From NCBI RefSeq assembly GCF_036507355.1, contig NZ_AP027877.1: a stretch of DNA of 64,000 nucleotides; one strand, 5' to 3'. Under the pieces are notes generated by a model that had not been told where the DNA came from, made no database searches, and saw only the letters and a list, made by a program, of their open reading frames with translations. Source of the stretch: Escherichia coli. Lineage in GTDB: Bacteria; Pseudomonadota; Gammaproteobacteria; Enterobacterales; Enterobacteriaceae. Positions 8,893 through 28,601 of the stretch are shown in pieces. A program made the translations under genes and the position numbers. The first letter of the stretch is position 1. Each line of letters starts with the position of its first letter.

Positions 8893-10953
8893 TTAACCTC
8901 GGCTCACCGTTTTCGATTCCATCCAATAAATGACCCGGTTGGATGTGGGCTGATCGCCAACAACTTTGCCATCTGCAGAGATTAGCTTCAGCTCTTTATT
9001 AGCCTCATCACCGAAGTAAATCATACGGTAGCGAAAATAACCGCCCCAGGGTTCACGTCCACCCAGCGGACTTTGCATAAACCAGGCGCGGGAGTCGTGA
9101 ACCTGGTCATCATAGAGGGCCAGTAATTCAGCGCATGGCTGAGTACGCGTTCCCGTTCCCAGTGAATCAATAAAAAATTGTGGATAGAGTCCGTCTCCCA
9201 TAGCCTTAATTTGCTGATATTCTTTTGCTTCATCATCGCCATTAATCAGATACACCGGATATTTAGGAATGACATCCACAAGAATCTGAATGGCTTTCTC
9301 CATGACGCTGCCGTTAATATCGCGCGTCCATCCTTTATAATCGCTCTGAAATTCTCGGGCTGCCTCTCGCAACTGATACTGAGCATTGGTTGGGTCAAGG
9401 ATAGGAATGCCCTGATTACTTTCATCAAGTGTGCCATTCCCTTTCTGCTTGTTCGCCCGCTCTTTTTCAATATTTTCCATTTGTTCTTTACGCGCTTTAG
9501 CCTCTTTATCAAGTCCATCTTTATCCAGCTGTGGCGCCTTAATATAAAAAGGTTGCACAAGAAGGCTGTTATTCGCATAGCGACCGATACGCCAGGCGGT
9601 GATCCAGCCGATCTGATCGCTAATTGCGCTTTCAAGAACCTGGGCAAGTTGATAGGAGTGATAACCTTCCCTCGTATCAATCATTTCTTCTGTACCCTGC
9701 AAGGTGGTGTTCAGCAGCGTTTGTCGCCAGATGTTGAAGCGTTTTGTTAATGAATTAGCAATCGTAAATTCCTTTACACTAGAAGGACTCATAATTCGCA
9801 GAGGCGACACACCTTTTATTAATGGAGTAACAAATTTAGAATAAACAGCAAGTGGTGCTCCTGAATCAAATGCAGCAAGATACATATCATGCAGTGCTAT
9901 CTGAGAAAGAATTTCGCCTGAGTCACCACAGGACTTCCCCTGATCGCGAACGGGATAGCCACCACCGACATCAGAGTGCATCCCCGGATAGATAATTTCC
10001 TCTGCATTTAAAGGATAATTTCCGTCTGGACGACGGATTGAATCCAGCGGAAAGCACAGCCGCTGCTCATGCGCGGCAACGAAGTGGCGGCAGCATTTAA
10101 TCAGGCCGGGAAACTGCCTCTCATCAGGGAGTTGCTGAGTACTATCGGCCCATCCCATATGACCGGCAGCGCCCGGTAAAACATGCGCCGCCCCCACAGA
10201 AGCTACGGTATCCAGCAGCCCCAAAAACTCAATACTGACAGCTAACCCGGCCAGCATCACCTGTTGCTCCTGCGGGCAAGCTAACTGAGTCAACCAGTTA
10301 ACAAAAGTTCGTGCTTCCGCTGCGCCACGGGAAAATCCGTAGATAAACAGCTTTACGTTTAGCAGGCGCGGACTGGCTTGCTCTAACAGTCCCTGTAATT
10401 TTTCCAGGTAGGGGTTAATCACATTGCGACGATTCACTTCACCAGTCATAGGCCAGGGAGCGCGCATAAGAGGAATGTGCTCTTTTGCCACATTATCATC
10501 CAGTCGCTTATGGGAAGGGTCAATGGAATAGCTCAGGGCATCCACGAGGCGTAATAATGCCCAATTAATTCGATCTTCACCACCAGTAGCGAACTCCAGC
10601 CCGCTGTTGCTGTAATCCATTTCACCTATCTTGGGAAATGGTGTGCCTACACCCGGTATATAGTAGTTAAAATATCCCTGTTCTTCTGCGTTCTGATAGG
10701 TCGTATGAAACAGTTTGGCAATATTGGTTGGGTGTCCAGGAGTGTCATTATATTCATTATTATTTGTACCATCAAAAAACAGACTAATATGCAGACTTTG
10801 ATTACACGTAAAGCCAATTCTAAATCCAGCCTGTTTACTACAGTTGGTTTTGTGCTCTTCTGTTTTATTGATTTGTTTTAGGTAGTTCGCGTTTACCTGC
10901 GCTTCAGATAATATTAATCGCCCATCTTCAGGGAACACCGGGGGGCATAACAC
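8893..10953 (-). CDS. T6SS phospholipase effector, Tle-type (DUF2235-like alpha/beta hydrolase)
   Basis: 686-aa ORF; N-terminal LHISLFFDGTNNN motif and GxSxG lipase motif (IYGFSRGAAEA) characteristic of DUF2235/Tle1-like effectors; sits after a vgrG remnant and adaptor-like gene. Confidence 0.7.
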   Translation of the reverse strand: MLCPPVFPEDGRLILSEAQVNANYLKQINKTEEHKTNCSKQAGFRIGFTCNQSLHISLFFDGTNNNEYNDTPGHPTNIAKLFHTTYQNAEEQGYFNYYIPGVGTPFPKIGEMDYSNSGLEFATGGEDRINWALLRLVDALSYSIDPSHKRLDDNVAKEHIPLMRAPWPMTGEVNRRNVINPYLEKLQGLLEQASPRLLNVKLFIYGFSRGAAEARTFVNWLTQLACPQEQQVMLAGLAVSIEFLGLLDTVASVGAAHVLPGAAGHMGWADSTQQLPDERQFPGLIKCCRHFVAAHEQRLCFPLDSIRRPDGNYPLNAEEIIYPGMHSDVGGGYPVRDQGKSCGDSGEILSQIALHDMYLAAFDSGAPLAVYSKFVTPLIKGVSPLRIMSPSSVKEFTIANSLTKRFNIWRQTLLNTTLQGTEEMIDTREGYHSYQLAQVLESAISDQIGWITAWRIGRYANNSLLVQPFYIKAPQLDKDGLDKEAKARKEQMENIEKERANKQKGNGTLDESNQGIPILDPTNAQYQLREAAREFQSDYKGWTRDINGSVMEKAIQILVDVIPKYPVYLINGDDEAKEYQQIKAMGDGLYPQFFIDSLGTGTRTQPCAELLALYDDQVHDSRAWFMQSPLGGREPWGGYFRYRMIYFGDEANKELKLISADGKVVGDQPTSNRVIYWMESKTVSRG

Positions 10954-11298
10954 GGAAAAGCCAGACCACTTATTTTGCTGGACATGTTGCTGGTTCTTTT
11001 ACTTTGAGAGATTTTAATTGATGGGTATTGTTTCTACGACAATAAAGTTTTGACAAAGAAGCAAATAAAATGCATATCTTTCGATTGTCACACATTGGAA
11101 TATCGACAGAGCATTGATGATATTACGCAAAATATATTGCAGCCAAGTGAACTGACATTACGATCGAACACAAATGCAACATGATGGATACTACCATTAC
11201 ATGTCGAGCTTGATTTTCCGTTTATTTCACGATTATCTCTTGATATTAACAGCTACGGACTTTTAAACAGATAAATCTCCCCGTACATCACCACAATA

Positions 11299-12069
11299 TT
11301 ATCCTTCGAAGTCCCGCAAAGCTCCGAAATATTTCGCGTCATTGGCTCTGAAAGCAATATCAAGACAGTGGGCAAAATAGCTTTCCTGACTGAGTTCACT
11401 GACTGCTTTCTCCTTCATCAGGACTTCAGCGTCGCAGATACAGCCCATCAATCCCACCTGTACATCATCCACCCGATTCATCTCCGGGTTGTCAGTAAGC
11501 CTGCGTTCTGGTGAAAAACTTCCTGATTTCCAGTTAATCTCACCATCACGGTCTAACCAGCTCCAGAACAACGCAATATCAGTAAATGTCGCCTGCTGCT
11601 CGTTAGTCAAAACATGTGTGAACAGTAAAGGGAACACCCGATTATCATAGTAACGCAGCAATCCGGTCTGTTCTTCCCACTGAACCTGTGACAATACCTG
11701 AAGATGCCGCCCCAGCAGGTCGAATGTAAGAGGGGATATCAACAAAGTAAGACGCGGCGTATCAGCAAATGACGCCATCAGTTGTGCCAGAAATTTGCGA
11801 TGGCTACTGAGCGCAAAGTACAGGCGTAACACTACAGGGGAATACTCCATCGTCTCAGCTTCAGGCGTTCCTTCAAACAGGGCATACCAGTGAATGGCTG
11901 GCGACAGATGAAGCATATCATTTTGCAAAGGTTGGTCGGTTCCAGCCTGGTCAACAAGCACATCTATGTAATCCAAACCAGCGGCAGAACAGAATGATTC
12001 AGCTTGCTTCAGCCAGATAATATATTTGTCTTGATCGGTAGCGTGTGGCGATACTGTTATCATTGTCAT
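11299..12069 (-). CDS. putative T6SS effector adaptor/chaperone (DUF4123-like, assigned by position)
   Basis: 256-aa ORF starting 6 nt after the vgrG-remnant stop (GGGAGA spacer acts as RBS) and preceding the Tle gene; the vgrG-DUF4123-lipase order is the canonical arrangement; domain not verified. Confidence 0.45.
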   Translation of the reverse strand: MTMITVSPHATDQDKYIIWLKQAESFCSAAGLDYIDVLVDQAGTDQPLQNDMLHLSPAIHWYALFEGTPEAETMEYSPVVLRLYFALSSHRKFLAQLMASFADTPRLTLLISPLTFDLLGRHLQVLSQVQWEEQTGLLRYYDNRVFPLLFTHVLTNEQQATFTDIALFWSWLDRDGEINWKSGSFSPERRLTDNPEMNRVDDVQVGLMGCICDAEVLMKEKAVSELSQESYFAHCLDIAFRANDAKYFGALRDFEG

Positions 12070-12075
12070 TCTCCC

Positions 12076-12470
12076 TTATCCACGAGGCGCAAAAACGGCG
12101 GCGGCTTCTTGCGCCCTTTTCAGGCACTCCTTACACACCGATTTTTCTGGCGCTTCCTCACCCTCATCGTTGTTATCATTCTGATCGGACGATGCATTAC
12201 TATCATTTTGCTCAGCCGCTAAACTTTTATCATCTGCCAGCGCTTTCAGAACCGCCGGTTGCAGCGTCGGCACCGGCGTTCCCGGACTACCGCCGCTATT
12301 GAGATTGATTTTCGGCCCGACGATGTCCACGCTCCCTGAATGGATGACCACAAACGAGCCGCCCACCTTCAGGCTTATCCGGCTGCTGCTCTCCAGCACC
12401 ACATCGCCCTCCACCTTTAACCACGCCACCGCAGTCAATGGCATCACCGGTTCTGGCGGTAGGTTTATCG
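12076..12470 (-). pseudogene. vgrG 3' remnant (second copy, DUF2345-like C-terminal region only)
   Basis: translation VEGDVVLESSSRISLKVGGSFVVIHSGSVDIVGPKINLNSGGSPGTPV is near-identical to the C-terminal region of the vgrG at 15531..17237; no upstream gp27/gp5 part. Confidence 0.75.
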
Positions 12471-12652: not shown

Positions 12653-13339
12653 CTAATATTTGATTAACAAAAAAAACGTATTTTTATCAAATTCATAATT
12701 ATCACATCCCTCTCCACTAAATGATATAGCTCTAAAATCATATTCATTACATGAGTATCTTTTCATCAAAATAGAGAGGAATGTTTCATTAATTGATTTT
12801 AATACAAACCATTTTCTCCTAACAAGTTTGTAGTTTAATGTTTTTATATGATAATTATTTAAACTGGGGAGAAATGAATGCATATCATTCAATTTTACAT
12901 CAAAATATATTTTTTTACCTGCCGTAATTTCCACCCATCGGCTCAAATTCAAATCAAGCTCAAAGGGACAAAAGCCTCCTAGATAGTCTAAGCTAATATT
13001 TCCTGATGTAATCAAGAATTCGTCATCACACAAAGCATCAAATACATCTCCATTTCCTTTTTGGAAGTTCTTTGGATAATATATTCTGGGGAGAAAATAC
13101 GATTTAGTACTACTGTTATAAAAAGTTATAGTGGCTAAAATATTTTCAGCATGTGGCTTAACCACCAATTTAACAACAACATCATTTGTTAATTCATTAC
13201 TTATATTTTCCTCTGGCGCTAAATTATGGCTAAGATAAATAATTGGTTTCCCATTGTCACTTCTTCGTTCAAAACCGAATCTGTATTTTTTTACAAAAAG
13301 ATTCTCATTATCTATTGCAATTGCAATAGATAATGGCAA
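12653..13339 (-). CDS. hypothetical protein, candidate immunity protein for the upstream HExxH protein
   Basis: 228-aa low-GC ORF immediately downstream of the vgrG-coupled gene; start uncertain (the ORF-track start corresponds to a TTG codon); no family recognised. Confidence 0.35.
   Translation of the reverse strand: MPLSIAIAIDNENLFVKKYRFGFERRSDNGKPIIYLSHNLAPEENISNELTNDVVVKLVVKPHAENILATITFYNSSTKSYFLPRIYYPKNFQKGNGDVFDALCDDEFLITSGNISLDYLGGFCPFELDLNLSRWVEITAGKKIYFDVKLNDMHSFLPSLNNYHIKTLNYKLVRRKWFVLKSINETFLSILMKRYSCNEYDFRAISFSGEGCDNYEFDKNTFFLLIKY
13305..13336. repeat. 32-bp perfect palindrome
   Basis: ccattatctattgcaattgcaatagataatgg is its own reverse complement; overlaps the first codons of the 12653..13339 ORF. 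Confidence 0.85.
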
Positions 13340-13512
13340 AAAACAAAGAAAAAAACCATCAGTACAACATAATTTAGATTATAGAAAGCCAACCTCTTCA
13401 TCTTATTTCCCCGTCAACTCATCAAAACATTTTTCTATCTCTTTTATTTTATCCTCTACTTTTTTTGCTAACATATTCTCATCTTGAGCTTCAATATCTT
13501 CATTATTTAATT

Positions 13513-14205
13513 TTATATAAAATATCTTTCAACATTATATGCATTCTCAAATAACTGATCTTTACGCAATGTAACCAGATCATTAGCCACTGAAACATGT
13601 TTCTCATAGCTAACTTCATCCTTATTACTTGTTGCGAACTTATTAATACCCGTATAATCCTGAGTCCACATACCACCTTTTTGATTGTCACCCCAATACC
13701 AAAATATATGGGACATTTCATGGCAAAGTGTACTTACATGAGAGTCTCTACCTGTAACCGACTGTTTTATACCATGTCTGTATTCAAAATGCGCTCCGAT
13801 ATTTACAATGTAAGGAGGATCAAGATGTGGACTAATAAAAGCAGCAAATTCATTGCAGTTCGTATAATCTTTATAGCTTTCGATCGTCAAACCATTTGCA
13901 ATCGTCATTATTCGTCTGATGCCATCCATTATGAATAGTCTCGCTTGCATTCGTTTCCCAGTATCTTCCCCAACCTTTCTGATTTTTATAATGTCCTCGC
14001 CTTTAAGGCCAAAAACTTTAATAAAATCTCGTTGTTGCTCCCCCTCCCATGACATAATATCATCTGCTCTTTTCAATAAAACCATTTTCTGTGCTTTACA
14101 AGCCTTACTCATCATTATTTTAAATTTATTTGTAATTTTTTGCGGTACTACACATACTTGCGACTCGGGTTGTGAAGTCCCACTAGTATTATTATTCCCT
14201 GCCAT
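13513..14205 (-). CDS. putative T6SS cargo effector with HExxH motif (Zn-metallopeptidase-like candidate)
   Basis: 231 aa from MAGNNNTSGT (ORF-track start further upstream is IS-derived read-through); RBS GGAGGGG; start codon overlaps the reconstructed vgrG stop (ATGGCAGGGAATAA); HEMSH motif near the C-terminus; low GC. Confidence 0.45.
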   Translation of the reverse strand: MAGNNNTSGTSQPESQVCVVPQKITNKFKIMMSKACKAQKMVLLKRADDIMSWEGEQQRDFIKVFGLKGEDIIKIRKVGEDTGKRMQARLFIMDGIRRIMTIANGLTIESYKDYTNCNEFAAFISPHLDPPYIVNIGAHFEYRHGIKQSVTGRDSHVSTLCHEMSHIFWYWGDNQKGGMWTQDYTGINKFATSNKDEVSYEKHVSVANDLVTLRKDQLFENAYNVERYFI

Positions 14206-14349
14206 AATGCCCCTCCGGCTCAATATAAAAAGCATCCGAAAATAACAATTGGACTTTAATTTCCTGTGCTGTATCTGTATAAAAGTGAGGTAGCCTGAGT
14301 TTAACGGACACTCCTTCCTGAAATAGAATGGCATCAGAAGGAGCTAATA

Positions 14350-14652
14350 ATGAGCAGAAAAACCCAACGTTACTCTAAAGAGTTCAAAGCCGAAGCTGTC
14401 AGAACGGTTCTTGAAAATCAACTTTCGATCAGTGAAGGCGCTTCCCGATTATCTCTTCCTGAAGGCACTTTAGGACAATGGGTTACCGCCGCCAGAAAAG
14501 GGCTCGGTACTCCTGGTTCCCGCACGGTGGCTGAACTGGAATCTGAAATTCTGCAACTGCGTAAGGCGTTAAATGAAGCTCGCCTTGAGCGAGATATATT
14601 AAAAAAAGCAACAGCGTATTTTGCACAGGAGTCGCTGAAAAATACGCGTTAA
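14350..14652 (+). CDS. IS3-family transposase OrfA (HTH)
   Basis: 100-aa ORF MSRKTQRYSKEFKAEAVRTV... with leucine-zipper-like C-terminus. Confidence 0.85.
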   Translation: MSRKTQRYSKEFKAEAVRTVLENQLSISEGASRLSLPEGTLGQWVTAARKGLGTPGSRTVAELESEILQLRKALNEARLERDILKKATAYFAQESLKNTR

Positions 14653-14687
14653 TCGAACAATGGCGACAACAATTTCCCATTGAAGCG

Positions 14688-15506
14688 ATGTGTCAGGTAT
14701 TTGGTGTATCCAGGAGCGGTTATTACAACTGGGTACAGCATGAACCCTCAGACAGAAAACAAAGTGATGAGCGGCTAAAACTGGAGATTAAGGTGGCACA
14801 TATCCGCACTCGCGAAACATATGGAACCCGGCGGCTCCAGACGGAGCTGGCAGAGAATGGCATCATCGTTGGTCGTGACCGACTGGCACGTCTTCGTAAG
14901 GAGCTAAGGCTACGCTGTAAGCAGAAACGCAAGTTCAGAGCGACTACGAACTCGAACCACAATCTGCCAGTTGCGCCAAATCTGCTGAACCAGACGTTCG
15001 CTCCTACAGCACCAAATCAGGTCTGGGTGGCGGACCTGACGTATGTTGCCACACAGGAGGGATGGTTGTACCTCGCTGGCATCAAAGATGTTTATACGTG
15101 CGAAATTGTCGGCTACGCCATGGGAGAGCGCATGACAAAAGAGCTGACAGGTAAAGCCCTGTTTATGGCGCTCAGGAGCCAGCGCCCACCTGCCGGGCTA
15201 ATCCACCACTCTGATCGAGGTTCACAGTACTGCGCATACGATTACCGGGTCATACAGGAGCAGTTTGGTCTGAAAACATCAATGTCGCGTAAAGGTAACT
15301 GTTACGACAACGCTCCGATGGAAAGCTTCTGGGGAACGCTGAAAAATGAGAGCCTGAGCCACTATCGTTTTAATAACCGGGATGAAGCCATCTCAGTAAT
15401 ACGGGAATACATTGAGATTTTCTACAATCGTCAGCGTCGTCACTCTCGTCTGGGGAATATCTCCCCGGCAGCCTTCAGGGAAAAATATCATCAGATGGCT
15501 GCTTAA
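14688..15506 (+). CDS. IS3-family transposase OrfB (DDE integrase core; probably made as an OrfAB frameshift fusion)
   Basis: 272-aa ORF with DLTYV...HHSDRGSQY...SRKGNCYDNAPMESFW DDE signature. Confidence 0.85.
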   Translation: MCQVFGVSRSGYYNWVQHEPSDRKQSDERLKLEIKVAHIRTRETYGTRRLQTELAENGIIVGRDRLARLRKELRLRCKQKRKFRATTNSNHNLPVAPNLLNQTFAPTAPNQVWVADLTYVATQEGWLYLAGIKDVYTCEIVGYAMGERMTKELTGKALFMALRSQRPPAGLIHHSDRGSQYCAYDYRVIQEQFGLKTSMSRKGNCYDNAPMESFWGTLKNESLSHYRFNNRDEAISVIREYIEIFYNRQRRHSRLGNISPAAFREKYHQMAA

Positions 15507-15530
15507 AAAAAGAATAAATGGTAGTGTCCG

Positions 15531-17237
15531 CTATTGCCAGTACACCTCAAATATTTCTGTATATCCCTCTCTGTCTGTTTCACCACGCGTCTGTGTGCCA
15601 TCCTCAAAAAAGGCAATATACTGCGTCTCTGAATACGGTATCCCGTCATCGTCCGTAAAATGGAACTGGAGGGTATATTTTTCAGGATCATCTTCATCGT
15701 CACCGCCATCACCTCCTCCGTCACTCCCTGCGGGATTGCCACTATCCTCTCCGGAGTCATCACTGCCATCATCACTGCTCTCATCCTCCGGAGCCTCCAG
15801 CACCGCCGGCTGCATCGTCCCCACCGGTGTCCCCGCACTGCCCCCACCGTTCAGGTTTATCTTCGGCCCGGCAATATCCACTCCGCCCGGCTGAATGACG
15901 ATAAACGAGCCACCCACCTTCAGGCTTATCCGGCTGCTGCTCTCCAGCACGATATCCCCGTCCACTTTTATCCCCAGCGCGCCACTCACCTTCTCCGCCA
16001 GGTCCCCCTTCACCACCAGGCTGTGTTTCCCCTCCACCAGACTGATATGGTTCCCCGTCGTCTTATGCTCCTGCTTCCCTTCCACCGTCACTTTACGGTC
16101 GTTTCTGACGTACAGACCGTCATCGTGACTCACGCTCACCGTCCGGTCATTCGTCACCTTCAGAGTCTGGTCATTACGTACCGTGATACGCCGGTCGTTC
16201 GCCACCGTGATACTCTGGTCGTGGCCCCCCTCTTTTTTTGTACCGACCTGAACCGTCTGACCCTTCACCACCGTTATCTTCTGGTCGTTACCGATGGTTT
16301 CCGTATGGTCATGTTTTACATCCGTTGTCCGGTCGTTGAGCACCTCCGTATCCATGTTCTTCTGCGCATGGATATACACCTGCTCATTACTGGTGGCGTC
16401 TTCAAACCGCAGCTCGTTAAATCCGCTTCCTTTATAGGTTTTTGACCGTATCGTCATCTGCGTCTTCGTTCCCGGCAGGTCGCCCGGGGAGCGGTTGTCC
16501 TCATGGTACGTCCGCCCCATGATTATCGGCTGGTCCGGGTCTCCGTTCAGAAAATCAACAATCACCTCCTGGCCCACCCGCGGTATCGCCAGATTACCGA
16601 ACCCCGGCCCCGCCCACGCCTGCGATACCCGCACCCAGCATGAACTCGCCTCCGTCATCCCGTGATAACGGTCCCAGTGGAACTTCACCCGTACCCGGCC
16701 ATGTTCATCGCAGAAGATTTCCTCTCCCGCAGGCCCGGTGACAATGGCACTCTGCGGCCCGTCCACCTTCGGTTTGCTTTGCAGCCGTGGACGCCACGTC
16801 CGGTCCGCCGGTATCACCTCTAACTGATTTCCCAGCGTGGTTCCTCTCCCTTGGCTGCCGTGCAGCGCCTGCGGCTGGCTTCCTGACAGTATGCTCTGTA
16901 CCACCTGCCATTCACGGTTCAGCATCTTCTGCGGATGCCCCGTCAGCGTAAACCGCGTTCCCGGCCACAGCCTCGGCGAATTACTCTGCCCTGTGGCCTT
17001 TTCCGCATCACTGCGCAGGCTCTCCATCTGGTACAGCGTGAAATCCTTGCCGTGCTGCTCATCCTTGAACCTTCCCGGATAATCAAATATTTCATACTGC
17101 GCCAGCTGTCCGTTCAGGTTCTCACCCTGCTGCTCATACATCCCCGGCCAGTCCGGCACCTTAAACGTGTAATCCTGGCTCTGCACCGACGACGGGCGGA
17201 CATGCGCCTCATACGCTACCGCCCGGGTTTCCGGCAT
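15531..17237 (-). pseudogene. vgrG: vgrG (T6SS spike) lacking the N-terminal ~220 aa and interrupted 33 codons before its stop by IS600-like copy 1
   Basis: 568-aa ORF with gp5-like OB-fold motif (GPAGEEIFCDEHGRVRVKFHWDRY) only ~165 aa from its start, repeated VxxNDR beta-helix segments, DUF2345-like region, acidic Gly/Asp linker and a short C-terminal domain; the last residues EVYWQ are encoded by the IS terminus. Confidence 0.8.
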
Positions 17238-17338: not shown

Positions 17339-17857
17339 TTATGCTTCCAGCGGTGCACGCCAGTCATCGGCACCAGAAGTACCGGATTTGATGTGCTCCC
17401 ACTCAACCTTACGGTATGCCAGTGATACTGCGAGCAATTGCGTAAACTCACGCTGTGCAGGGTCCTGGCAGTGCGGCATGTGCAGGTTCATGTCCACAAT
17501 CGTCGCGTCAGTAAGACGTGTGGTGAAGTAGTGCTCCTGCTTGCCTTCAACTGAAGTACGCCACCAGTGCAGCTCCACTTTCGGCAGCATTTCACCGGAG
17601 GCCAGCGCGTTGTACAGCAGCGGAACGGCTTTGTTCAGCGCCACGGTGAAAATGAACGGTTTGTGCGCGCGCTGCCCGGAAGGTTGACCAGACTGTGGAT
17701 CGGTTGGAACAGTAACGTTATGCAGAAACTCCTGCACCAGCATTTCATCTTCGTGTCCCTGCACGTAGATATTGCCGACAGAATCTGCGGTGAAAGCACC
17801 GGCAGTGATGTTCCCCTGGGTCTGACCTGTAATTGAAATGTAACATGGGGTTGGCAT
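17339..17857 (-). CDS. hcp: Hcp (T6SS inner tube protein, TssD)
   Basis: 172-aa ORF MPTPCYISITGQTQGNITAGAFTADSVGNIYVQGHEDE..., typical Hcp1-family sequence and size. Confidence 0.9.
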   Translation of the reverse strand: MPTPCYISITGQTQGNITAGAFTADSVGNIYVQGHEDEMLVQEFLHNVTVPTDPQSGQPSGQRAHKPFIFTVALNKAVPLLYNALASGEMLPKVELHWWRTSVEGKQEHYFTTRLTDATIVDMNLHMPHCQDPAQREFTQLLAVSLAYRKVEWEHIKSGTSGADDWRAPLEA

Positions 17858-18559: not shown

Positions 18560-18718
18560 ATGAGCAAAATGAACAACAATGGCGGCAGTGTCGCGCCGAA
18601 AGAAAGAATCAGCGTTCGGTATACACCAAAAGTTGATGGGGTGGCTGCTGATATCGAATTGCCGCTGAATTTATTGATCACCGGCAATCTGAAAGGGAAA
18701 CCAGATAACACGCCGTGA
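18560..18718 (+). pseudogene. tssB: tssB (T6SS sheath small subunit) 5' stub, 52 codons, truncated by an IS3-family element
   Basis: MSKMNNNGGSVAPKERISVRYTPKVDGVAADIELPLNLLITGNLKGKPDNTP matches the conserved TssB/VipA N-terminus; the stop codon TGA is the first three bases of the IS inverted repeat. Confidence 0.65.
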
Positions 18719-18772
18719 ATCGCCACGGGTTTAACAGACACCTCAGAGTCATTTAAGATGGCTTAAAGAGAG

Positions 18773-19057
18773 GTGCCCATGAGCGGTAAGCGTTATCCCG
18801 AAGAGTTTAAAATTGAAGCAGTCAAACAGGTTGTTGATCGCGGTTATTCTGTTGCCAGCGTTGCAACACGTCTCGATATCACCACCCACAGCCTTTACGC
18901 CTGGATAAAGAAGTACGGTCCGGATTCTTCCGCTAATAAAGAACAGTCAGATGCTCAGGCCGAGATCCGCCGTCTCCAGAAAGAGCTGAAGCGGGTTACC
19001 GACGAACGGGACATATTAAAAAAAGCCGCGGCGTACTTCGCAAAGCTGTCCGACTGA
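18773..19057 (+). CDS. IS3-family transposase OrfA
   Basis: 94-aa ORF MPMSGKRYPEEFKIEAVKQVVDRGYSVASVATRL... (HTH plus leucine zipper). Confidence 0.85.
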   Translation: MPMSGKRYPEEFKIEAVKQVVDRGYSVASVATRLDITTHSLYAWIKKYGPDSSANKEQSDAQAEIRRLQKELKRVTDERDILKKAAAYFAKLSD

Positions 19058-19113
19058 GGTACGCCTTTATCCGTGACAACACCTGTTGCTGGCCTGTTCG
19101 CCTGCTCTGTCGG

Positions 19114-19926
19114 GTGCTGGATGTTCATCCCAGTGGTTTTTACGCCTGGCTTCAGCAGCCGCATTCACAACGCCATCAGGCAGACCTGAGGCTGACAGGG
19201 CAGATTAAACAGTTCTGGCTGGAATCGGGATGCGTCTATGGTTATCGCAAAATCCATCTGGATCTGCGGGACAGCGGGCAACAGTGCGGAGTGAACAGAG
19301 TCTGGCGACTGATGAAACGTGTCGGGATAAAGGCTCAGGTCGGATACCGGAGCCCGCGGGCACGTAAAGGCGAGGCCAGTATCGTGTCGCCCAACAGGCT
19401 CCAGCGACAGTTCAATCCGGATGCTCCGGATAAGCGTTGGGTAACGGACATAACCTACATCAGGACCCACGAAGGCTGGCTGTATCTTGCCGTGGTTGTT
19501 GATCTGTTCTCACGCAAAATTATCGGCTGGTCCATGCAATCCCGGATGACAAAGGACATTGTCCTGAACGCACTGCTGATGGCTGTATGGCGCCGTAATC
19601 CCCAAAAACAGGTGCTGGTTCATTCGGATCAGGGCAGTCAGTACACAAGCCATGAGTGGCAGTCGTTCCTGAAATCACACGGCCTGGATGGCAGCATGAG
19701 CCGTCGCGGTAACTGCCATGATAATGCGGTTGCAGAAAGCTTTTTCCAGTTGTTGAAACGCGAACGGATAAAGAAAAAGATCTACGGAACGCGGGAAGAA
19801 GCCCGCAGCGATATTTTTGATTACATCGAAATGTTTTATAACAGTAAGCGTCGGCATGGTTCCAGCGATCAGATGTCACCGACAGAATATGAAAACCAGT
19901 ATTATCAACGGCTCGGAAGTGTCTAG
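19114..19926 (+). CDS. IS3-family transposase OrfB (DDE)
   Basis: 270-aa ORF with DITYIRTHEGWLYLAVVVDLFSRK...HSDQGSQYTS...SRRGNCHDNAVAESFF DDE signature. Confidence 0.85.
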   Translation: MLDVHPSGFYAWLQQPHSQRHQADLRLTGQIKQFWLESGCVYGYRKIHLDLRDSGQQCGVNRVWRLMKRVGIKAQVGYRSPRARKGEASIVSPNRLQRQFNPDAPDKRWVTDITYIRTHEGWLYLAVVVDLFSRKIIGWSMQSRMTKDIVLNALLMAVWRRNPQKQVLVHSDQGSQYTSHEWQSFLKSHGLDGSMSRRGNCHDNAVAESFFQLLKRERIKKKIYGTREEARSDIFDYIEMFYNSKRRHGSSDQMSPTEYENQYYQRLGSV

Positions 19927-20198
19927 ATTATCCGTGGCGATTCAGTTGTCAAGCAGATAGAAGCCATCTAGGTCAGGGGGAATGACTAGGAATTACTCCC
20001 CAAGGGTAGCGTACGTCTACACACATCAAATTACCTCCCGGACAGGGACATAGTAGAAATATTGTGTATTGCAATTATGGATACTGTCATCGTCTAGGTA
20101 GTTCGCCAGCTTTATAGTGTTTTACTGAATTTGGCCACCTGAGCAGAGGTGATATGGGAGAGTGATTTTCATACGCTCTCGTATGGTTTCCGGCCTGA

Positions 20199-20426
20199 AT
20201 GCAGTGTTCATCACGCGATCCGCACGGTGAAATTACAGCTCACAGACTGTGGGGAAACCCGGGGCGCTGGGTGATTGAAGACGACCTGTCCAGTTACTTC
20301 GACACCGTACACCATCGACTGCTGATGAAAGCCGTACGCCGCAGGATCAGTGACGCACGTTTTATGGCCCTCCTGTGGAAAACCATCAAGGCGGGCACAT
20401 CGAGGTCGGTCTCTTTCGGGCGGTAA
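20199..20426 (+). pseudogene. reverse transcriptase fragment (group II intron/retron-type RT, as in K-12 CP4-6 ykfC)
   Basis: translation contains IEDDLSSYFDTVHHRLLMKAVRRRISDARFMALLWKTIKAG, the RT fingers/palm motif context; only about 75 codons. Confidence 0.55.
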
Positions 20427-20439
20427 GTGACGCCGCGCC

Positions 20440-20684
20440 AGCTGACGTTGCCACGAATATTCGCCAATACGCTGCCAGACTTCGGTATGAAAGCGCAGAA
20501 TCAATGACCGGTAATCGGCCATGCTTTCGCGGTACGGCAGCGTCAACGTAAAGCAGAACACCACGAGTCGTGGGTAATGGTCAACGGCCTGTTGCAGAAA
20601 GGCTCGTGTATTTGTCGTGTCAGTCGAATTGCCGGAGACGATGGAGGGAGAATAAGGATTCATAACGGCGCTCTCAATGAACAC
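20440..20684 (-). pseudogene. prophage-remnant protein fragment (possibly inovirus Gp2-like)
   Basis: N-terminal part of minus-strand ORF 20211..20684 (MNPYSPSIVSGNSTDTTNTRAFLQQAVDHYPRL...); the rest of that ORF overlaps the RT fragment on the other strand and is probably read-through. Confidence 0.3.
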
Positions 20685-20888
20685 TGGTGTGATGGACAGG
20701 AGTGTGATGTTGCAGGTGTGCTGCTCATCATCGATCCCATATCATTACGTTCGCTCACTAAGACGGAGTGCCTTTCGTCATTTAACCTGTCACAATCCAA
20801 ATAATTTCAGACAGATATTATCTCCGTGAATCCCCCGCCTCCTTAACCGGAGCGCGGGGATTTTTCTTTTTCACGTTGAGAACTCTGT

Positions 20889-21773
20889 ATGACTAAACCT
20901 CACGGCCTTCAGGCCCTTGAACAACCGCTGGCGTCGCTTCCCGATGCGCTTCGCCAGCTTATTCTTGAACGTATTCAGAATCTCACCCACTATGAGCCGG
21001 TGATTGGTATCATGGGCAAAAGCGGTGCCGGTAAGTCTTCGCTCTGTAACGAACTCTTCCGGGGTGAGGTCTCCCCCGTCAGTGATGTGAACGCCTGTAC
21101 CCGTGAAGTGCTGCGCTTCCGGCTGCGCAGCGGGCGTCACAGTCTGGTGATTGTTGATTTACCGGGTGTGGGAGAAAACGGGCAACGGGACCATGAATAC
21201 CGTGCCCTGTACCGGCGTATGCTGCCGGAACTGGACCTGGTTCTGTGGGTCATTAAGTCCGATGACCGGGCGCTGTCGGTGGACGAGCAGTTCTGGCGCG
21301 GTGTGATGCAGCCTTACCAGCAGCAGGTGGTGTTCGTGATTAACCAGGCCGACAAAATAGAACCCAGCCATGAATGGGATACCCGTTCTGGTACTCCCTC
21401 AGCACAGCAACAGAAAAATCTTCAGGAAAAGCAGGTTGCCATTACCACGATGTTTAAGCCACATCACCCGGTCTGCGTGGTATCCGCATGTACCGGATGG
21501 GGCGTGGAGGATATGGTAGCAACCATGATGCGCTGTCTGCCGGACCGCGCCACCAGCCCAGTAGCGACACAGTTGCACGGGAGGCTCTGCACGGAGCCGG
21601 TAAAGTCGCAGGCCCGTGACGGCTTCGGTGAGGCGGTGGGGCGGTGGGGCGGGTGTTCGATACGGCAGAATCATCGTTATTCCTGCCTGCGCCGCTGAAG
21701 ACGGTGATACGTACCGTGCGTGATGCTGTGGTGTCTGTAGCCCGCGCGGTCTGGGACTGGATCTTCTTCTGAA
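20889..21773 (+). pseudogene. YeeP/YkfA/YfjP-like prophage GTPase with a probable 3' frameshift
   Basis: Walker A GKSGAGKSS, G3 DLPG and NQADK G4 motifs; the ORF ends at 21698 but a plausible conserved C-terminus (...TVIRTVRDAVVSVARAVWDWIFF) continues in another frame to about 21773. Confidence 0.65.
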
Positions 21774-22032
21774 TGAGTAAAAGGTCATCAGGACTGTAGT
21801 GAATGACTCTGTTTATTCACCGCCTGGTAGATGATTATTTCCAGGCAGACATAACCTGTCCTGACCAGCAAAAGATACCACCAGTCATAAGCGCGTCACC
21901 ACTGCCGACGTTGCATCCACACAGTCTTCTTGCACCAGGCGTTTCGCTACGTATGACGGACACAACCTGTCAGTCCCATCCTTTACAGTAATACCTTCTT
22001 TATTAATCAATTACCCAACACGGAGATAATAC

Positions 22033-22736
22033 ATGTCTCAGGCTGAGCGTCGTTATGACCGCCTGTCTGTCCGGCTTTCTCTAATTATCAGCCGTCTGCT
22101 CGCGGGTGAAACGCTGAATATGCGCAAACTGGCCGCTGAGTTTGGCATCTCGGAGCGTACCCTACATCGTGATTTCCGCGAGCGTCTGATTTATCTCGAC
22201 CTCGAATATCAGGATGGCTGCTGCCGTCTGCTGACCGGAGGCCGTCAGGAGATTCGGGAGGAGGCCGCAATGCAGTTTGCCCGTCAGTCAGGCACTGGCG
22301 CGTTGTTTCCTGATATGGACCACCATCTGGTCAATTCATTGCTGAGCAGCAAGGACTCCTCGCCATGTCTTATCTGGCATCCGTAACGTCTTCCCGCCCA
22401 GGCATCTTCACACGACTGGTCAGGGCGGTATCAGAAAACAGGAAGGTAACCCTGCTGGCTGACGGATGCCGTTGCGACAACCTTGCCCCCTACCGACTGA
22501 TTTTCAGCACCGGTGGGTGGTTTCTGGTGGGGGAACACCTTGCCCGGATAACCGTTTTTGCACTGCACACAGTTCACTCCGTGACGTTTCACGCGGAAAC
22601 CTTCACACCAGACGGACATTTCACCCGCATTCTGTCACACCCGGATTTTTTACAGGCGTTACCTCATTTTCATGTTTTTCATTCACTACTCGCTGACGGC
22701 AGTTACGGGCAGCTTACCCATAAGGAACAGGCATGA
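22033..22736 (+). pseudogene. YfjR-like HTH/WYL transcriptional regulator, split into two overlapping ORFs (22033..22386 and 22365..22736)
   Basis: N-terminal HTH ([21 protein letters not shown]) in ORF 1; ORF 2 in a different frame carries a WYL-like segment (GGWFLVGEH); combined length about 235 aa fits a single regulator. Confidence 0.45.
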
Positions 22737-23368
22737 AATTACTCACCTCGGCGGCGCTGGCCGCCAGCCTCTGCATTACCTCTGTGACCCCGGCCATCGC
22801 AGAAAATATCGTGGGTTCAGTTAAGGCCTGGCAGTACATGCAGGCTGATGGCTGGAAATCCGCTGATGGATACGATGATAACCGCATGCATAACGAGTTA
22901 TACCAGGCGGTCGTTCTTGATAATTATCCCTGGACGAATCACTTTCTGCTTCGTAGCAGAGGCGGTAGTTCGCTTTATCTGGCAGACAAGAAAGCTAAAA
23001 CTGTCAAATACATCGATATAAAACCTCGCGACGAGTATCCGTTACATCTTCAGGTTGTTTATCGGGGAATTGATGACGGGAGTGGCTGTTATTTCGCCAT
23101 TGTAGATGACCGAATGGCAAACTACTGGACGATTGTTGAAGATCGTCTTCTCTATCAGGACCCACCTGTTGAAGACGTCGATGCGAAAGCAGCTGAGCTT
23201 AGAAAACAACTCACGCCGGAAGTCGTGATGATGGTGAAGGATAATTGTATTGACAAACAGCAGCAGGCTGCACTGGCAGCTAAGCGTTCTGAAAAAGATC
23301 GAGAGTTGCAACAGTGGGTGGCGAAACAGAGCCTGGCGGAATTATGTCGTCGTACCGGCAACTGCTGA
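22733..23368 (+). CDS. hypothetical secreted protein (CP4-like remnant)
   Basis: 211-aa ORF with signal peptide MKLLTSAALAASLCITSVTPAIA; start overlaps the preceding stop. Confidence 0.5.
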   Translation: MKLLTSAALAASLCITSVTPAIAENIVGSVKAWQYMQADGWKSADGYDDNRMHNELYQAVVLDNYPWTNHFLLRSRGGSSLYLADKKAKTVKYIDIKPRDEYPLHLQVVYRGIDDGSGCYFAIVDDRMANYWTIVEDRLLYQDPPVEDVDAKAAELRKQLTPEVVMMVKDNCIDKQQQAALAAKRSEKDRELQQWVAKQSLAELCRRTGNC

Positions 23369-23403
23369 CCCGCTGAAAACAACCATAACAGGGAGTTTTT
23401 AAC

Positions 23404-23856
23404 ATGAATATATTTACTACGCGTCTGACGACCTCTCTGGTGGTCATCGGCACTCTGCTGCTCTCCGGCTGCGACAGCAAGGAAGATGCAGGCGTGAAGA
23501 CGATTGCCCGATTTAAGGACCTGACTCCGCCGCCCTTCAGCGACGTGGTGGCGCATAAATCCGATATCGAGCAGGAATGGGTAAAAAAGGATGCCTTCGG
23601 CACACCGCTATACACGGTAATGAAAACTCGCCAGTCGCCGGAAGGCTGTGAGTCCGGCAGTTATTACTACATTGCTGATATGCAGCAGAAAACGGTGCAG
23701 CCGCTGATAGCCGCCCTGTGTCTCGCGGACAATATTACTCTGAGCTTCCGGATCGAGACCGACAGCTACACGGGTGAGAAATCGGTGGTGTATTCGCACG
23801 ATGGCAAGGAAATGGGGAAACTCTTGCTGCCGGATAACCAGGAGAACCATCCATGA
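23404..23856 (+). CDS. hypothetical lipoprotein (YfjS-like position)
   Basis: 150-aa ORF with lipobox LLLSGC. Confidence 0.5.
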   Translation: MNIFTTRLTTSLVVIGTLLLSGCDSKEDAGVKTIARFKDLTPPPFSDVVAHKSDIEQEWVKKDAFGTPLYTVMKTRQSPEGCESGSYYYIADMQQKTVQPLIAALCLADNITLSFRIETDSYTGEKSVVYSHDGKEMGKLLLPDNQENHP

Positions 23857-24305
23857 AGAAGCTGAAAGGTGTTATCTCTGCTGCAGTCCTGAGTCTGTAT
23901 TTGCTGACACCGGCCCATGCTGATGGCGGTTTTCAGGGTGCCATCAAAGGCGGCATTCCGGCCTACACCCGCGATGTAAAACACAACAACCCCTTCTGGT
24001 GTAACCAGTACAAACTGGTGAGAAAGATGTGTGAAGTGGTTTCGCAATCGGAAAATGGGCGCGTTGCCATTGTCAGAATGGTCCCCACCGACTGGAAATG
24101 CCCCAACGGTATCTGGGGTGTGGTTGACCGTTCTAATGGTGACGCCATGGAGTTGGTCCCGACGGCGAAAATGTCCCTGGAGCAGTACTGCAGCAAGGCA
24201 TTCAGTGCAGGTTTTGTCAAACCACAGAACAGGAAATCACTGGCCGACGTCGTGATGTACTACAACGGCAAGCCAGTCGGTTCTTTCGAATACATTGAAG
24301 AGTGA
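23853..24305 (+). CDS. hypothetical secreted protein (YfjT-like position)
   Basis: 150-aa ORF with signal peptide MKKLKGVISAAVLSLYLLTPAHA; overlaps the previous stop (operon-like). Confidence 0.5.
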   Translation: MKKLKGVISAAVLSLYLLTPAHADGGFQGAIKGGIPAYTRDVKHNNPFWCNQYKLVRKMCEVVSQSENGRVAIVRMVPTDWKCPNGIWGVVDRSNGDAMELVPTAKMSLEQYCSKAFSAGFVKPQNRKSLADVVMYYNGKPVGSFEYIEE

Positions 24306-24367
24306 ACTCCCCGCCTCAGGGAGAAGCTTCCCGTATTCATTTAACACATTAAAAATAAAGGAAAAGA

Positions 24368-24910
24368 ATGAACTGGCATTATGAGAAAAATGGCGTGCGT
24401 CACGACAATGTGACCGAAGCCGACATAACCGAACGTATTCAGCGCGGGGAGCTGAATGCCTCAACGCTGGTATGGCAACAGGGCATGACGGAATGGCAGC
24501 CGCTGTCAGCCACGCCGCTGGCAGATGTCCTGAAACAATGTGCGGTTCCCCCCGCGCTGCCCGGCAATCGTATCCCCGGAAGCATGGTCTGGACGCTGGC
24601 CTTTGCGCCCCTGATTGGGTATGCCCTGGAGATGTGGACGGCCGGGCTGAGCGGAATGGAATTTGAAGAGGCGTATGCCGCCGTGACGGAGGGGCAATAC
24701 TGGTTTATCACACTGATACTGAATATTGCGCTGGGGTATCTGGATGAACGACGGCTCCGTAAATCCGGCGTTGATACCGCCGCCTTTGGCTGGCTGGCCT
24801 GGCTGGTTCCGTTTTATCTGTGGCGTCGGGCAAAAGCCCTCGGACAGAAACCGGCTTACTTCTGGGTCTGGCTGGTCACGCTGACAGTGACAGTCCTGGG
24901 CGCAGGATAA
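24368..24910 (+). CDS. hypothetical membrane protein with N-terminal GYF-like/DUF4339-like segment
   Basis: 180-aa ORF; NGVRHDNVTEADITERIQRGELNASTLVWQQGMTEWQPL followed by hydrophobic helices. Confidence 0.45.
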   Translation: MNWHYEKNGVRHDNVTEADITERIQRGELNASTLVWQQGMTEWQPLSATPLADVLKQCAVPPALPGNRIPGSMVWTLAFAPLIGYALEMWTAGLSGMEFEEAYAAVTEGQYWFITLILNIALGYLDERRLRKSGVDTAAFGWLAWLVPFYLWRRAKALGQKPAYFWVWLVTLTVTVLGAG

Positions 24911-24969
24911 CCGGCATCAGCGCTGTCCGGCCCGGATGAGCAGGCAAGTTAAATCAAGGAACAATATCA

Positions 24970-25800: not shown

Positions 25801-26067
25801 TGCCACCACTGCCTGATAACGCCCACCCGGCCGCCATTAATCCTGCCCCCTGGAGAACAACCCCGGCAGCCGCCCCATCTCCGATGACGACCTGTGCGCC
25901 TGTGCTCACACCTTCTTTATCGTCCCGGTGAACTCAGTTTCTGCCGGTTAAGTCTCGCTGACGGCCACTGGCCCTCACACTGTGATGAAGACGGCTATGC
26001 GCAGTCCTGTCCGTCACTCCGATTGAACCGGTATCCCCAACACAATGAATGAAAGAGGAAAAACAAC

Positions 26068-26538: not shown

Positions 26539-26549
26539 GGTCAGCCGCT

Positions 26550-27029: not shown

Positions 27030-27049
27030 CACAACAGGAGAATAACCGA

Positions 27050-27271: not shown

Positions 27272-27294
27272 CACACGTTTAAGGAAGGCTAAAA

Positions 27295-27654: not shown

Positions 27655-27704
27655 AGCTTCTTACTACTTACCCTCGTTTTACCCATCAACAAAGAGATCC
27701 CACT

Positions 27705-28570: not shown

Positions 28571-28601
28571 ATCTTCTCACCAATAAGCACAGGATATTCT
28601 C

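What the first reader, a model, noticed from the sequence alone, without database searches (positions are those of the whole stretch)
13513..17237. vgrG with an acidic linker and C-terminal extension is translationally coupled to an uncharacterised HExxH-motif gene; an IS600-like element splits them
Removing the IS600-like element (14285..15549) and reading the vgrG frame across the junction gives a continuous ORF: ...GETDREGYTEIF then YTDTAQEIKVQLLFSDAFYIEPEGHYGRE and a stop. That stop (TAA) lies inside ATGGCAGGGAATAA, overlapping the start codon of the next gene (start 14205, RBS GGAGGGG). Such stop/start overlap is characteristic of spike-cargo pairs, so the 231-aa product is a candidate VgrG-dependent effector. 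It is low-GC, has HEMSH near the C-terminus, and I do not recognise its family. The VgrG tail after the DUF2345-like region (acidic Gly/Asp/Ser linker, then about 75 aa) may be the effector-recruitment domain.
Basis: partly seen in the sequence, partly recalled or inferred. Interest (0 to 1): 0.7.

Follow-up and report, generated by a model that had tools for sequence, protein, structure and literature searches.

The report
Decayed VgrG–M35 toxin–immunity cassette
This is a broken copy of a known bacterial weapon module (a type VI secretion spike gene, a zinc-protease toxin it carries, and the antidote gene), so it is ordinary rather than new.

Summary
Removing the IS600 copy (14286-15549) plus one 3-bp target duplication restores a vgrG 3' end whose protein is identical to the intact E. 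coli allele. Its TAA stop lies inside ATGGCAGGGAATAA, the start of the next gene.

The "unrecognised" HExxH protein is not uncharacterised:
- RefSeq names its intact 267-aa form "peptidase M35".
- Its predicted fold and its family profile match only aspzincin (M35) zinc endopeptidases.
- A 28%-identical homologue, M35-PAR of E. coli PAR, has been shown to be a periplasm-acting toxin. Its downstream immunity protein neutralises it, and it binds VgrG through VgrG's C-terminal fragment (PMC10673891).
- The window's downstream ORF is homologous to that immunity protein.

The VgrG tail is a TTR-like β-domain. Its best solved match is the EAEC VgrG1 chain of the Tle1-bound spike structure (6sjl). 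The same tail precedes the M35-like gene in 8 of 8 loci examined.

In this window the module is a relic:
- vgrG has also lost its first ~213 codons.
- The M35 gene and the immunity gene each carry a 1-nt frameshift.
- The T6SS core genes are gone.

Interest is low.

The parts
17339..17857 (-). hcp (172 aa), apparently intact
   Evidence: ORF. The stretch is 99.7% identical to the hcp region of L001, where it is annotated as Hcp family T6SS effector WP_001142963.1.
15550..17213 (-). vgrG body, 5'-truncated: it matches residues ~216-768 of the intact 799-aa protein. The deletion junction is at 17212/17213. The ATG at 17237 is spurious.
   Evidence: a ~738-bp deletion relative to L001 9548-10286. 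Pfam on the intact protein gives Phage_GPD, Phage_base_V and Gp5_trimer_C.
15684..15800 (-). acidic Gly/Asp/Ser-rich linker of VgrG (LEAPEDESSDDGSDD...DDEDDP)
   Evidence: Coordinates. The same linker is present in L002, L008, L012 and L014, but absent from the T6SS-2-type VgrGs of E. coli PAR.
15550..15683 (-). first part of the TTR-like C-terminal domain of VgrG (EKYTLQFHFTDDDGIPYSETQYIAFFEDGTQTRGETDREGYTEI-)
   Evidence: AF2 model has pLDDT ~90 for residues 6-61. The best PDB match is 6sjl_A, the EAEC VgrG chain of the Tle1-bound spike structure: rmsd 1.0 A over 54 columns, probability 1.0.
14286..15549 (+). IS600-like IS3-family element (orfA 14350-14652, orfB 14688-15506)
   Evidence: 97.4% identical to annotated IS600 copies. 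Flanking imperfect 3-bp duplication at 14283-14285 and 15550-15552.
14192..14285 (-). 3' end of vgrG cut off by the IS: the last 31 codons plus the stop
   Evidence: The reconstructed C-terminus is identical to WP_104773291.1.
14192..14216 (-). ribosome-binding site GGAGGGG (14216-14210) and the 14-nt stop/start overlap ATGGCAGGGAATAA (14205-14192)
   Evidence: All four E. coli loci compared base by base (L004, L002, PAR1, PAR2) have a Shine-Dalgarno-like sequence inside the last vgrG codons.
13513..14205 (-). M35-like (aspzincin) metallopeptidase effector gene, frameshifted: 230 aa instead of 267. HEMSH is at 13722-13708, the Asp motif TQDYTG at 13665-13648, and ENAYNVERYF at 13548-13519.
13403..13512 (-). 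out-of-frame remainder of the M35 gene, encoding the C-terminal helix ...IKLNNEDIEAQDENMLAKKVEDKIKEIEKCFDELTGK*. The 1-nt loss lies in the A-run at 13517-13520.
12653..13401 (-). cognate immunity gene (249 aa when intact, with an N-terminal signal/anchor segment), frameshifted at 13349-13355
   Evidence: It is 35% identical (E 2e-28) to AKO63_2956, the tested immunity protein of M35-PAR. It is 40% and 30% identical to the other two downstream ORFs.
12076..12447 (-). vgrG C-terminal remnant with a different tail, heading the next cargo module
11299..12069 (-). tla1 (DUF4123 chaperone of Tle1)
   Evidence: NCBIfam NF053803 Tla1, E 1.2e-65.
8893..10953 (-). tle1-like phospholipase effector gene (686 aa)
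   Evidence: Annotation of the 99% identical L001 gene.

Best explanation
The region is a decayed copy of a type VI secretion 'spike-cargo-immunity' cassette.

How the intact form works (E. coli JX21CE8 and 11 other complete genomes):
- A 799-aa VgrG ends in a flexible acidic linker and a small TTR-like beta-domain.
- That domain, or the C-terminal VgrG fragment containing it, holds a 267-aa zinc endopeptidase of the aspzincin/M35 type. The predicted ligands are H162, H166 and D183, with catalytic E163.
- The peptidase gene starts inside the last codons of vgrG, so the two are made together.
- When the T6SS fires, the peptidase is carried on the spike into the periplasm of a neighbouring Gram-negative cell and is toxic there. 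The substrate is unknown.
- The producer is protected by the product of the next gene, a 249-aa protein with a signal or anchor segment.

State in this window: the cassette cannot work as a T6SS weapon. vgrG has lost its first ~213 codons and is split by IS600. The peptidase and immunity genes are each frameshifted. The T6SS core genes next to tssB are replaced by an IS and an unrelated island.

Shown here: the sequence anatomy, the homologies, the predicted folds and the linkage. Shown by others for a 28%-identical homologue: periplasmic toxicity, neutralisation by the downstream protein, and binding to the VgrG C-terminal fragment. Inferred: that this subfamily behaves the same way, that the TTR-like tail rather than the beta-helix is the contact, and the metal ligands.
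For: Reconstruction and identity to the intact allele.

Intact loci and RefSeq names (peptidase M35 / M35 family metalloendopeptidase).

Aspzincin assignment:
- AF2 model pLDDT 89.8.
- Foldseek against PDB: the top five hits are all M35 enzymes (1ge6, 1g12, 2x3a, 2x3b, 1eb6; probability 1.0; TM 0.75 normalised to 1ge6).
- Family profile against PDB sequences: AsaP1 E 6.6e-7, GfMEP E 1.6e-5.
- Pfam Aspzincin_M35 hits 14 of 23 members at E<=0.1, best 3.5e-9.
- Invariant H162, E163, H166, D183 and the AYNxERYF motif.

Experimental homologue:
- E. coli PAR L007:42630-43418 is 28% identical over the full length, E 7e-29.
- Its immunity protein is 35% identical to the window's downstream ORF, E 2e-28.
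- Toxicity, immunity and VgrG-fragment binding are reported in PMC10673891.

VgrG tail:
- TTR-like, best PDB hit 6sjl_A.
- The same tail precedes the M35-like gene in 8 of 8 loci.
- Tails are ~45% identical where the VgrG bodies are 24.5% identical.

Decay.
Against: - No experiment exists for this subfamily; identity to the tested member is only 28%.
- Pfam Aspzincin_M35 on this protein alone is weak (E 0.002), and NCBIfam has no model.
- The aspzincin GTxDxxYG motif is only partly kept (GGMWTQDYTG), and the His-to-Asp spacing is longer than in solved M35 enzymes, so the third ligand is an inference.
- Stop/start overlap is not universal: two distant loci have gaps of 90 and 186 nt.
- The co-IP in PMC10673891 used a fragment with both the DUF2345-like helix and the tail, so the tail's role is not isolated.
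- Many natural homologues end right after ERYFEI. The truncated 230-aa product could therefore still fold and be active, so 'dead gene' is not proven for the peptidase itself.
Confidence: 0.85

Rival explanations
1. The protein belongs to the Tpe1 / VgrG2b C-terminal metallopeptidase family (DUF4157). This is implied by PMC10673891, which equates M35-PAR with the toxin domain of P. aeruginosa VgrG2b. On this reading it would act as that family is proposed to, for example by releasing lipoproteins from membranes.
For: - The context is the same: vgrG, then an HExxH peptidase, then an envelope-targeted immunity gene.
- Both are periplasm-acting.
- VgrG2b also has a TTR-like segment before its peptidase domain.
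Against: - None of 23 family members hits DUF4157 in Pfam, while 14 hit Aspzincin_M35.
- Foldseek and the profile search against PDB return only aspzincins and no VgrG2b structure.
- phmmer over 1.84 billion representatives found only short stand-alone proteins and no VgrG fusions.
Confidence: 0.07
2. The cassette in this window is still functional. On this reading the truncated M35 protein is made and delivered by another VgrG/T6SS elsewhere in the genome, or the remnant serves as an orphan immunity locus.
For: - The 230-aa ORF keeps every invariant residue, and many homologues naturally end at the same point.
- The RBS and start codon are intact.
- hcp is intact.
Against: - The promoter-proximal vgrG is 5'-deleted and IS-split, so coupled translation is lost.
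- The immunity gene stops after 29 codons, so an active periplasmic toxin would not be countered, and orphan immunity is not available either.
- The adjacent T6SS core is deleted.
- Delivery needs the matching TTR-like tail, which is disrupted here.
Confidence: 0.06
3. vgrG and the M35 gene are expressed as one fused 'evolved VgrG' through programmed ribosomal frameshifting at the overlap.
For: In the intact allele the M35 reading frame is open for 126 codons upstream of its ATG. A 1-nt shift at the IS junction gives a single 819-aa ORF.
Against: - The upstream open stretch is not conserved: 15, 0 and 5 codons in three other loci.
- All four E. coli loci checked have their own Shine-Dalgarno-like sequence and ATG.
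- Two distant loci have intergenic gaps.
- No slippery motif was seen.
Confidence: 0.02

Closest known systems
M35-PAR / AKO63_2955-2956 module of E. coli PAR (PMC10673891, Commun Biol 2023)
   Same: - Same protein family: 28% identity over the full length, E 7e-29, with identical motifs DSxVSxLCHExSH, GGMxxxD and ENAYNIERYFEI.
- The immunity proteins are homologous (35% identity, E 2e-28).
- The gene sits directly after a vgrG with the same TTR-like tail and a stop/start overlap.
   Different: - It is a different subfamily, riding on a T6SS-1-type VgrG with an acidic linker. The VgrG bodies are only 24.5% identical.
- This subfamily has an extra C-terminal helix of ~37 aa.
- The window copy is decayed.
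- The assignment of AKO63_2955 to L007:42630-43418 rests on gene order and RefSeq tag numbering, not on a sequence printed in the paper.
EAEC VgrG1-Tle1 spike-cargo complex (PDB 6sjl/6sk0; Flaugnatti et al., cited in PMC6899460 and PMC10673891)
   Same: The VgrG carries a C-terminal TTR-like domain after the beta-helix. The cargo is encoded next to vgrG. The predicted tail superposes on the 6sjl_A VgrG chain with rmsd 1.0 A over 54 columns at 26% identity.
   Different: The cargo is a small metallopeptidase, not a Tle1 phospholipase. An acidic linker is present here. Direct binding by the tail was not tested.
Aspzincin / MEROPS M35 peptidases (GfMEP 1ge6, AsaP1 2x3a, deuterolysin 1eb6)
   Same: The catalytic-domain fold matches, as does the TGxDSxxxTLxHExSHF active-site helix.
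   Different: - About 16% sequence identity.
- An extra N-terminal helical region (helices at residues 27-65).
- Longer His-to-Asp spacing, and the YG of GTxDxxYG is not kept.
- No propeptide or signal peptide.
- Delivered by T6SS rather than secreted.
Tpe1-Tpi1 / VgrG2b C-terminal domain-PA0261 (DUF4157; PMC6899460)
   Same: Works alike: a T6SS HExxH metallopeptidase acting in the periplasm, either VgrG-fused or a VgrG-adjacent cargo, with an envelope-targeted immunity protein.
   Different: It is a different Pfam family and the fold match was not found. The immunity proteins here are larger (203-319 aa).

Membership tests
Aspzincin / peptidase M35 | HExxH zinc-binding helix | tested here: met
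   HEMSH at residues 162-166. H162, E163 and H166 are invariant in 26 and in 23 aligned homologues.
Aspzincin / peptidase M35 | Third zinc ligand Asp within a GTxDxxYG-type motif downstream of HExxH | tested here: inconclusive
   D183 is invariant, in GGM(G/W)TxD. The GTxD part is kept in most members. The YG part is not kept, and the spacing is longer than I recall for GfMEP. The ligand role was not verified on coordinates.
Aspzincin / peptidase M35 | Aspzincin catalytic-domain fold | tested here: met
   Model pLDDT 89.8. The top five Foldseek PDB hits are all M35 enzymes at probability 1.0, with TM 0.75 normalised to 1ge6. The next hits have E above 2.
Aspzincin / peptidase M35 | Significant match to the family profile (Pfam PF14521) or to member sequences | tested here: met
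   This protein alone gives i-E 0.0016-0.0022, which is weak. At family level, 4 of 23 members score at E<=0.001, best 3.5e-9. The family profile against PDB gives AsaP1 E 6.6e-7 and GfMEP E 1.6e-5.
Aspzincin / peptidase M35 | Zinc-dependent endopeptidase activity | not testable with these tools
   Needs biochemistry.
VgrG-dependent T6SS cargo effector with cognate immunity (M35-PAR type) | Encoded immediately downstream of vgrG | tested here: met
   True in 8 of 8 loci examined: the window/L004 allele, L002, PAR1, PAR2, L008, L010, L012 and L014.
VgrG-dependent T6SS cargo effector with cognate immunity (M35-PAR type) | Cognate VgrG carries a cargo-specific C-terminal adaptor domain | tested here: met
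   The same TTR-like tail is present in all 8 upstream VgrGs. The best PDB match is 6sjl_A. The downstream vgrG remnant in front of tla1/tle1 has a different tail.
VgrG-dependent T6SS cargo effector with cognate immunity (M35-PAR type) | Homologous immunity gene directly downstream | tested here: met
   E 2e-28 to AKO63_2956, and E 2e-50 and 1e-17 to the other two. The intact form has an N-terminal hydrophobic signal or anchor segment.
VgrG-dependent T6SS cargo effector with cognate immunity (M35-PAR type) | T6SS-dependent secretion, toxicity and neutralisation | not testable with these tools
   Toxicity and neutralisation were shown only for the 28%-identical M35-PAR, in a periplasmic pET22b assay with co-IP (PMC10673891). 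The passages read report no T6SS-dependent secretion test for M35-PAR.
Tpe1 / VgrG2b C-terminal metallopeptidase (DUF4157) | Match to DUF4157 or to the VgrG2b C-terminal domain fold | tested here: not met
   No DUF4157 hit in 23 members. No VgrG2b structure appears among the Foldseek or profile hits to PDB.
IS600 (IS3 family) | About 1.26 kb, TG...CA ends, orfA/orfB, 3-bp target duplication, high identity to IS600 | tested here: met
   1264 bp; orfA is 100 aa and orfB 272 aa; 97.4% identity to annotated IS600 copies. The duplication is imperfect (AAG/AAT).

The most novel reading that the evidence does not exclude
Aspzincin-type (M35-like) peptidases may form their own class of T6SS antibacterial effectors, separate from the DUF4157/Tpe1 class with which the one experimental paper lumped them. 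The unit that moves between spikes would be 'TTR-like VgrG tail + peptidase + immunity'. This cassette is found grafted onto VgrG bodies of both T6SS-1 and T6SS-2 types. If so, the small tail alone would specify cargo choice, and the substrate of an aspzincin in the periplasm would be a new T6SS target.
Probability: 0.55. Interest if true: 0.35.

Novelty: new member of a known kind. Interest (0 to 1): 0.18.

Why it matters
It matters little for this window, where the locus is a pseudogenised relic.

More generally, the analysis tidies up one point. The E. coli "peptidase M35" proteins that follow vgrG are genuine aspzincin-fold enzymes, present in roughly 10% of complete E. coli genomes as the 57%-identical paralogue. 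They always follow a VgrG with one particular TTR-like tail. That gives a clean, small system (a ~60-residue folded tail domain and a ~230-residue cargo) for studying how a spike picks its cargo. It also flags that the periplasmic substrate of this effector class is still unknown.

Tried and rejected
- NCBIfam and PADLOC scans of the peptidase and immunity proteins found nothing.
- Pfam on the immunity protein found nothing, even at E<=10.
- phmmer of the single peptidase sequence and of the 77-aa VgrG tail against PDB sequences gave only chance-level hits.
- The word-indexed homologue search with the 77-aa tail returned only short fragments, some of them frameshifted. They were used only as alignment depth.
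- Programmed frameshift fusion of VgrG and M35 is rejected, because the upstream open frame is not conserved.
- Membership in DUF4157/Tpe1 is rejected.
- I tried to identify the source genome. The IS600 junction is absent from 5426 complete E. coli genomes and from the GTDB species representatives, so the origin stays unknown. An IS-rich, Shigella-like lineage is only a guess.
- Literature searches for 'aspzincin' + T6SS and 'peptidase M35' + 'type VI secretion' returned no papers.
Full report
**1. The observation.** Everything in 13513-17237 is on the minus strand except the IS.

- The IS runs from 14286 (TGAGG...) to 15549 (...CCTCA) and is 1264 bp. It has orfA at 14350-14652 and orfB at 14688-15506.
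- It is 97.4% identical to elements annotated as IS600 in E. coli.
- It is flanked by AAG (14283-14285) and AAT (15550-15552), an imperfect 3-bp target duplication.
- Removing the IS and one duplication copy (1267 nt) joins ...GETDREGYTEIF to YTDTAQEIKVQLLFSDAFYIEPEGHYGRE*.
- This is not just a plausible reading. The intact 799-aa VgrG of E. coli JX21CE8 (WP_104773291.1) has exactly this C-terminus.
- The TAA stop (14194-14192) lies in ATGGCAGGGAATAA (14205-14192), and GGAGGGG lies at 14216-14210.

I compared the window with intact loci (L001 and L004, 99.5% identical outside vgrG). These belong to 12 of 5426 complete E. coli genomes. The comparison shows four more lesions.

- A ~738-bp deletion, with its junction at 17212/17213, removes vgrG codons 1 to about 213 and part of the hcp-vgrG spacer. 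The ATG at 17237 is an accident of the junction.
- A 1-nt loss in an A-run (13517-13520) truncates the next gene from 267 to 230 codons, just after NVERYF.
- A 1-nt loss at 13349-13355 stops the gene after that one after 29 codons. This removes its hydrophobic N-terminal segment (MKRLAFYNLNYVVLMVFFLCFLPLSIAIA).
- tssB is cut after ~52 codons at 18716 by another IS3-family element. What follows, up to tRNA-Asp at 29863, is an unrelated CP4-like island.

The T6SS core is therefore gone from this site, and the module is a relic.

**3. The HExxH protein.**

- RefSeq already calls the intact protein "peptidase M35" or "M35 family metalloendopeptidase".
- On its own the sequence gives only a weak Pfam Aspzincin_M35 hit (i-E 0.0016), and NCBIfam has no model.
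- A full HMMER scan of 1.84 billion representatives found a small family: 44 clusters, all short stand-alone proteins.
- In alignments of 26 and 23 members, H162, E163, H166, D183 (in GGMxTxD), Y223, N224, E226, Y228 and F229 are invariant.
- An AlphaFold2 model built on that alignment is confident (pLDDT 89.8, pTM 0.86).
- Foldseek against PDB returns five aspzincins at the top: Grifola peptidyl-Lys metalloendopeptidase (1ge6, 1g12), AsaP1 (2x3a, 2x3b) and deuterolysin (1eb6). Nothing else credible follows.
- The family profile also hits AsaP1 (E 6.6e-7) and GfMEP (E 1.6e-5) by sequence, over TGxDSxxxTLxHExSHF.
- Aspzincin_M35 is the only Pfam family matched by many members: 14 of 23 at E<=0.1, best 3.5e-9. 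DUF4157 is never matched.

The protein is therefore a divergent aspzincin. Its HExxH is a conserved catalytic motif, not a chance pentapeptide.

**4. Is it a VgrG cargo?** In every locus I could inspect, the gene sits directly after a vgrG.

| Locus | Source | Junction with vgrG |
|---|---|---|
| Window allele / L004 | E. coli | 14-nt overlap |
| L002 (57% paralogue) | E. coli, including EAEC 042 | 11-nt overlap |
| PAR1 | E. coli PAR, T6SS-2 cluster | 8-nt overlap |
| PAR2 | E. coli PAR, T6SS-2 cluster | 8-nt overlap |
| L008 | Buttiauxella | 11-nt overlap |
| L010 | unidentified assembly | 1-nt gap |
| L012 | short contig | 186-nt gap |
| L014 | short contig | 90-nt gap |

- The L002 paralogue occurs in 508-653 of 5426 genomes, in a PAAR-vgrG-M35-immunity island.
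- Tight coupling is therefore common but not universal.
- All four E. coli loci I compared base by base (L004, L002, PAR1, PAR2) carry a Shine-Dalgarno-like sequence inside the last vgrG codons.

**5. Experimental precedent.** PMC10673891 (Commun Biol 2023) studied the E. coli PAR locus. It names AKO63_2953 as the VgrG domain, 2954 as 'DUF2345', 2955 as 'M35-PAR' and 2956 as the immunity protein.

- M35-PAR sent to the periplasm from pET22b killed E. coli.
- Co-expressing 2956 rescued the cells.
- M35-PAR bound VgrG only in the presence of the C-terminal VgrG fragment.

In RefSeq the PAR vgrG is a frameshifted pseudogene, followed by L007:42630-43418 and L007:43503-44429. Gene order and the gap in RS locus-tag numbering identify these two as 2955 and 2956. 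They are 28% identical (E 7e-29) and 35% identical (E 2e-28) to the window's peptidase and downstream ORF. The family-level function (toxin plus cognate immunity, loaded through the VgrG C-terminus) is therefore already published.

**6. The VgrG tail.**

- Pfam sees nothing after residue ~672 of the intact VgrG.
- The last 77 residues, modelled with 13 homologues, form a small all-beta domain. pLDDT is ~90 for residues 6-61 and the last 14 residues are disordered.
- The best PDB match is chain A of 6sjl, the EAEC VgrG of the Tle1-bound spike structure: rmsd 1.0 A over 54 columns, 26% identity, probability 1.0.
- The same tail (Y-x-[LIM]-x-F-x-F-T-D-D-x-G-x-P-Y...Y-I-A...D-G...G-x-T-D...) ends all eight VgrGs that precede an M35-like gene.
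- It is ~45% identical between VgrGs whose bodies are only 24.5% identical.
- The vgrG remnant at 12076-12447, which precedes tla1/tle1, has a different tail.

**7. Mechanism.** When intact, the VgrG trimer presents TTR-like domains on acidic flexible linkers. These hold the aspzincin cargo, and firing delivers it to the prey periplasm, where it is toxic. The immunity protein, exported or anchored by its N-terminal segment, blocks it in the producer. Low G+C (35.8% for the peptidase and 28.9% for the immunity gene, against 57.3% for vgrG) fits a horizontally moving cassette. The substrate is unknown. Here the cassette is non-functional as a weapon. The 230-aa product keeps the whole conserved core, since many homologues end at ERYFEI, so the peptidase itself may still fold.

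**8. Rivals.**

- DUF4157/Tpe1 membership, which the 2023 paper implies, fails the Pfam, fold and profile tests.
- A frameshift-fused VgrG-M35 is not supported, because the upstream open frame is not conserved.
- Residual function in trans is unlikely, given the broken immunity gene and the missing core.

**9. Verdict.** This is a decayed new member of a known kind, and interest is low.

Noticed in passing
window 10954-11298 (junction repeat at 10969-10996): The Tle1 immunity gene tli1a (525 bp in the intact locus L001 4032-4556) is missing between tla1 and tle1. The tle1 ORF stays full length at 686 aa. A 28-bp sequence shared by both alignment blocks marks the deletion or insertion point.
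   Followed up: partly
window 18560-29939: tssB is cut after ~52 codons at 18716 by an IS3-family element (orfA 18773-19057, orfB 19114-19926). The rest of the T6SS-1 core is replaced by a CP4-like island (GTPase, DUF4942, DUF932 genes) that reaches tRNA-Asp at 29863-29939.
   Followed up: partly
window 12076-12447: A vgrG C-terminal remnant has a tail (…EAPEKSVCKECLKRAQEAAAVFAPRG) unlike the TTR-like tail of the upstream vgrG. It heads the tla1-tle1 module, which illustrates one tail per cargo type.
   Followed up: partly
L007 (E. coli PAR NZ_CP012379.1) 35770-44429: Two tandem vgrG / M35-like / immunity modules sit inside a T6SS-2 cluster at metV. The second vgrG is a frameshifted pseudogene in RefSeq. 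The 'stand-alone DUF2345 gene' studied in PMC10673891 may therefore be the 3' piece of a broken vgrG.
   Followed up: partly
L002 / NC_017626.1 (EAEC 042) 1655491-1657226: A 57%-identical paralogue of the peptidase lies in a PAAR-vgrG-M35-immunity island near yncE. It is present in about 10% (508-653 of 5426) of complete E. coli genomes, against 12 genomes for the window's variant.
   Followed up: partly
window 15549-17213 versus L001 7885-9548: The vgrG body is only 96.7% identical to the intact reference, while the flanking hcp and cargo genes are 99.5-99.7% identical. This suggests allelic exchange within vgrG.
   Followed up: no
window 38087-41708: A second tRNA-Asp (38087-38163) and a tRNA-Ala/tRNA-Ile pair (41514-41708), typical of an rRNA operon spacer, lie downstream.
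   Followed up: no
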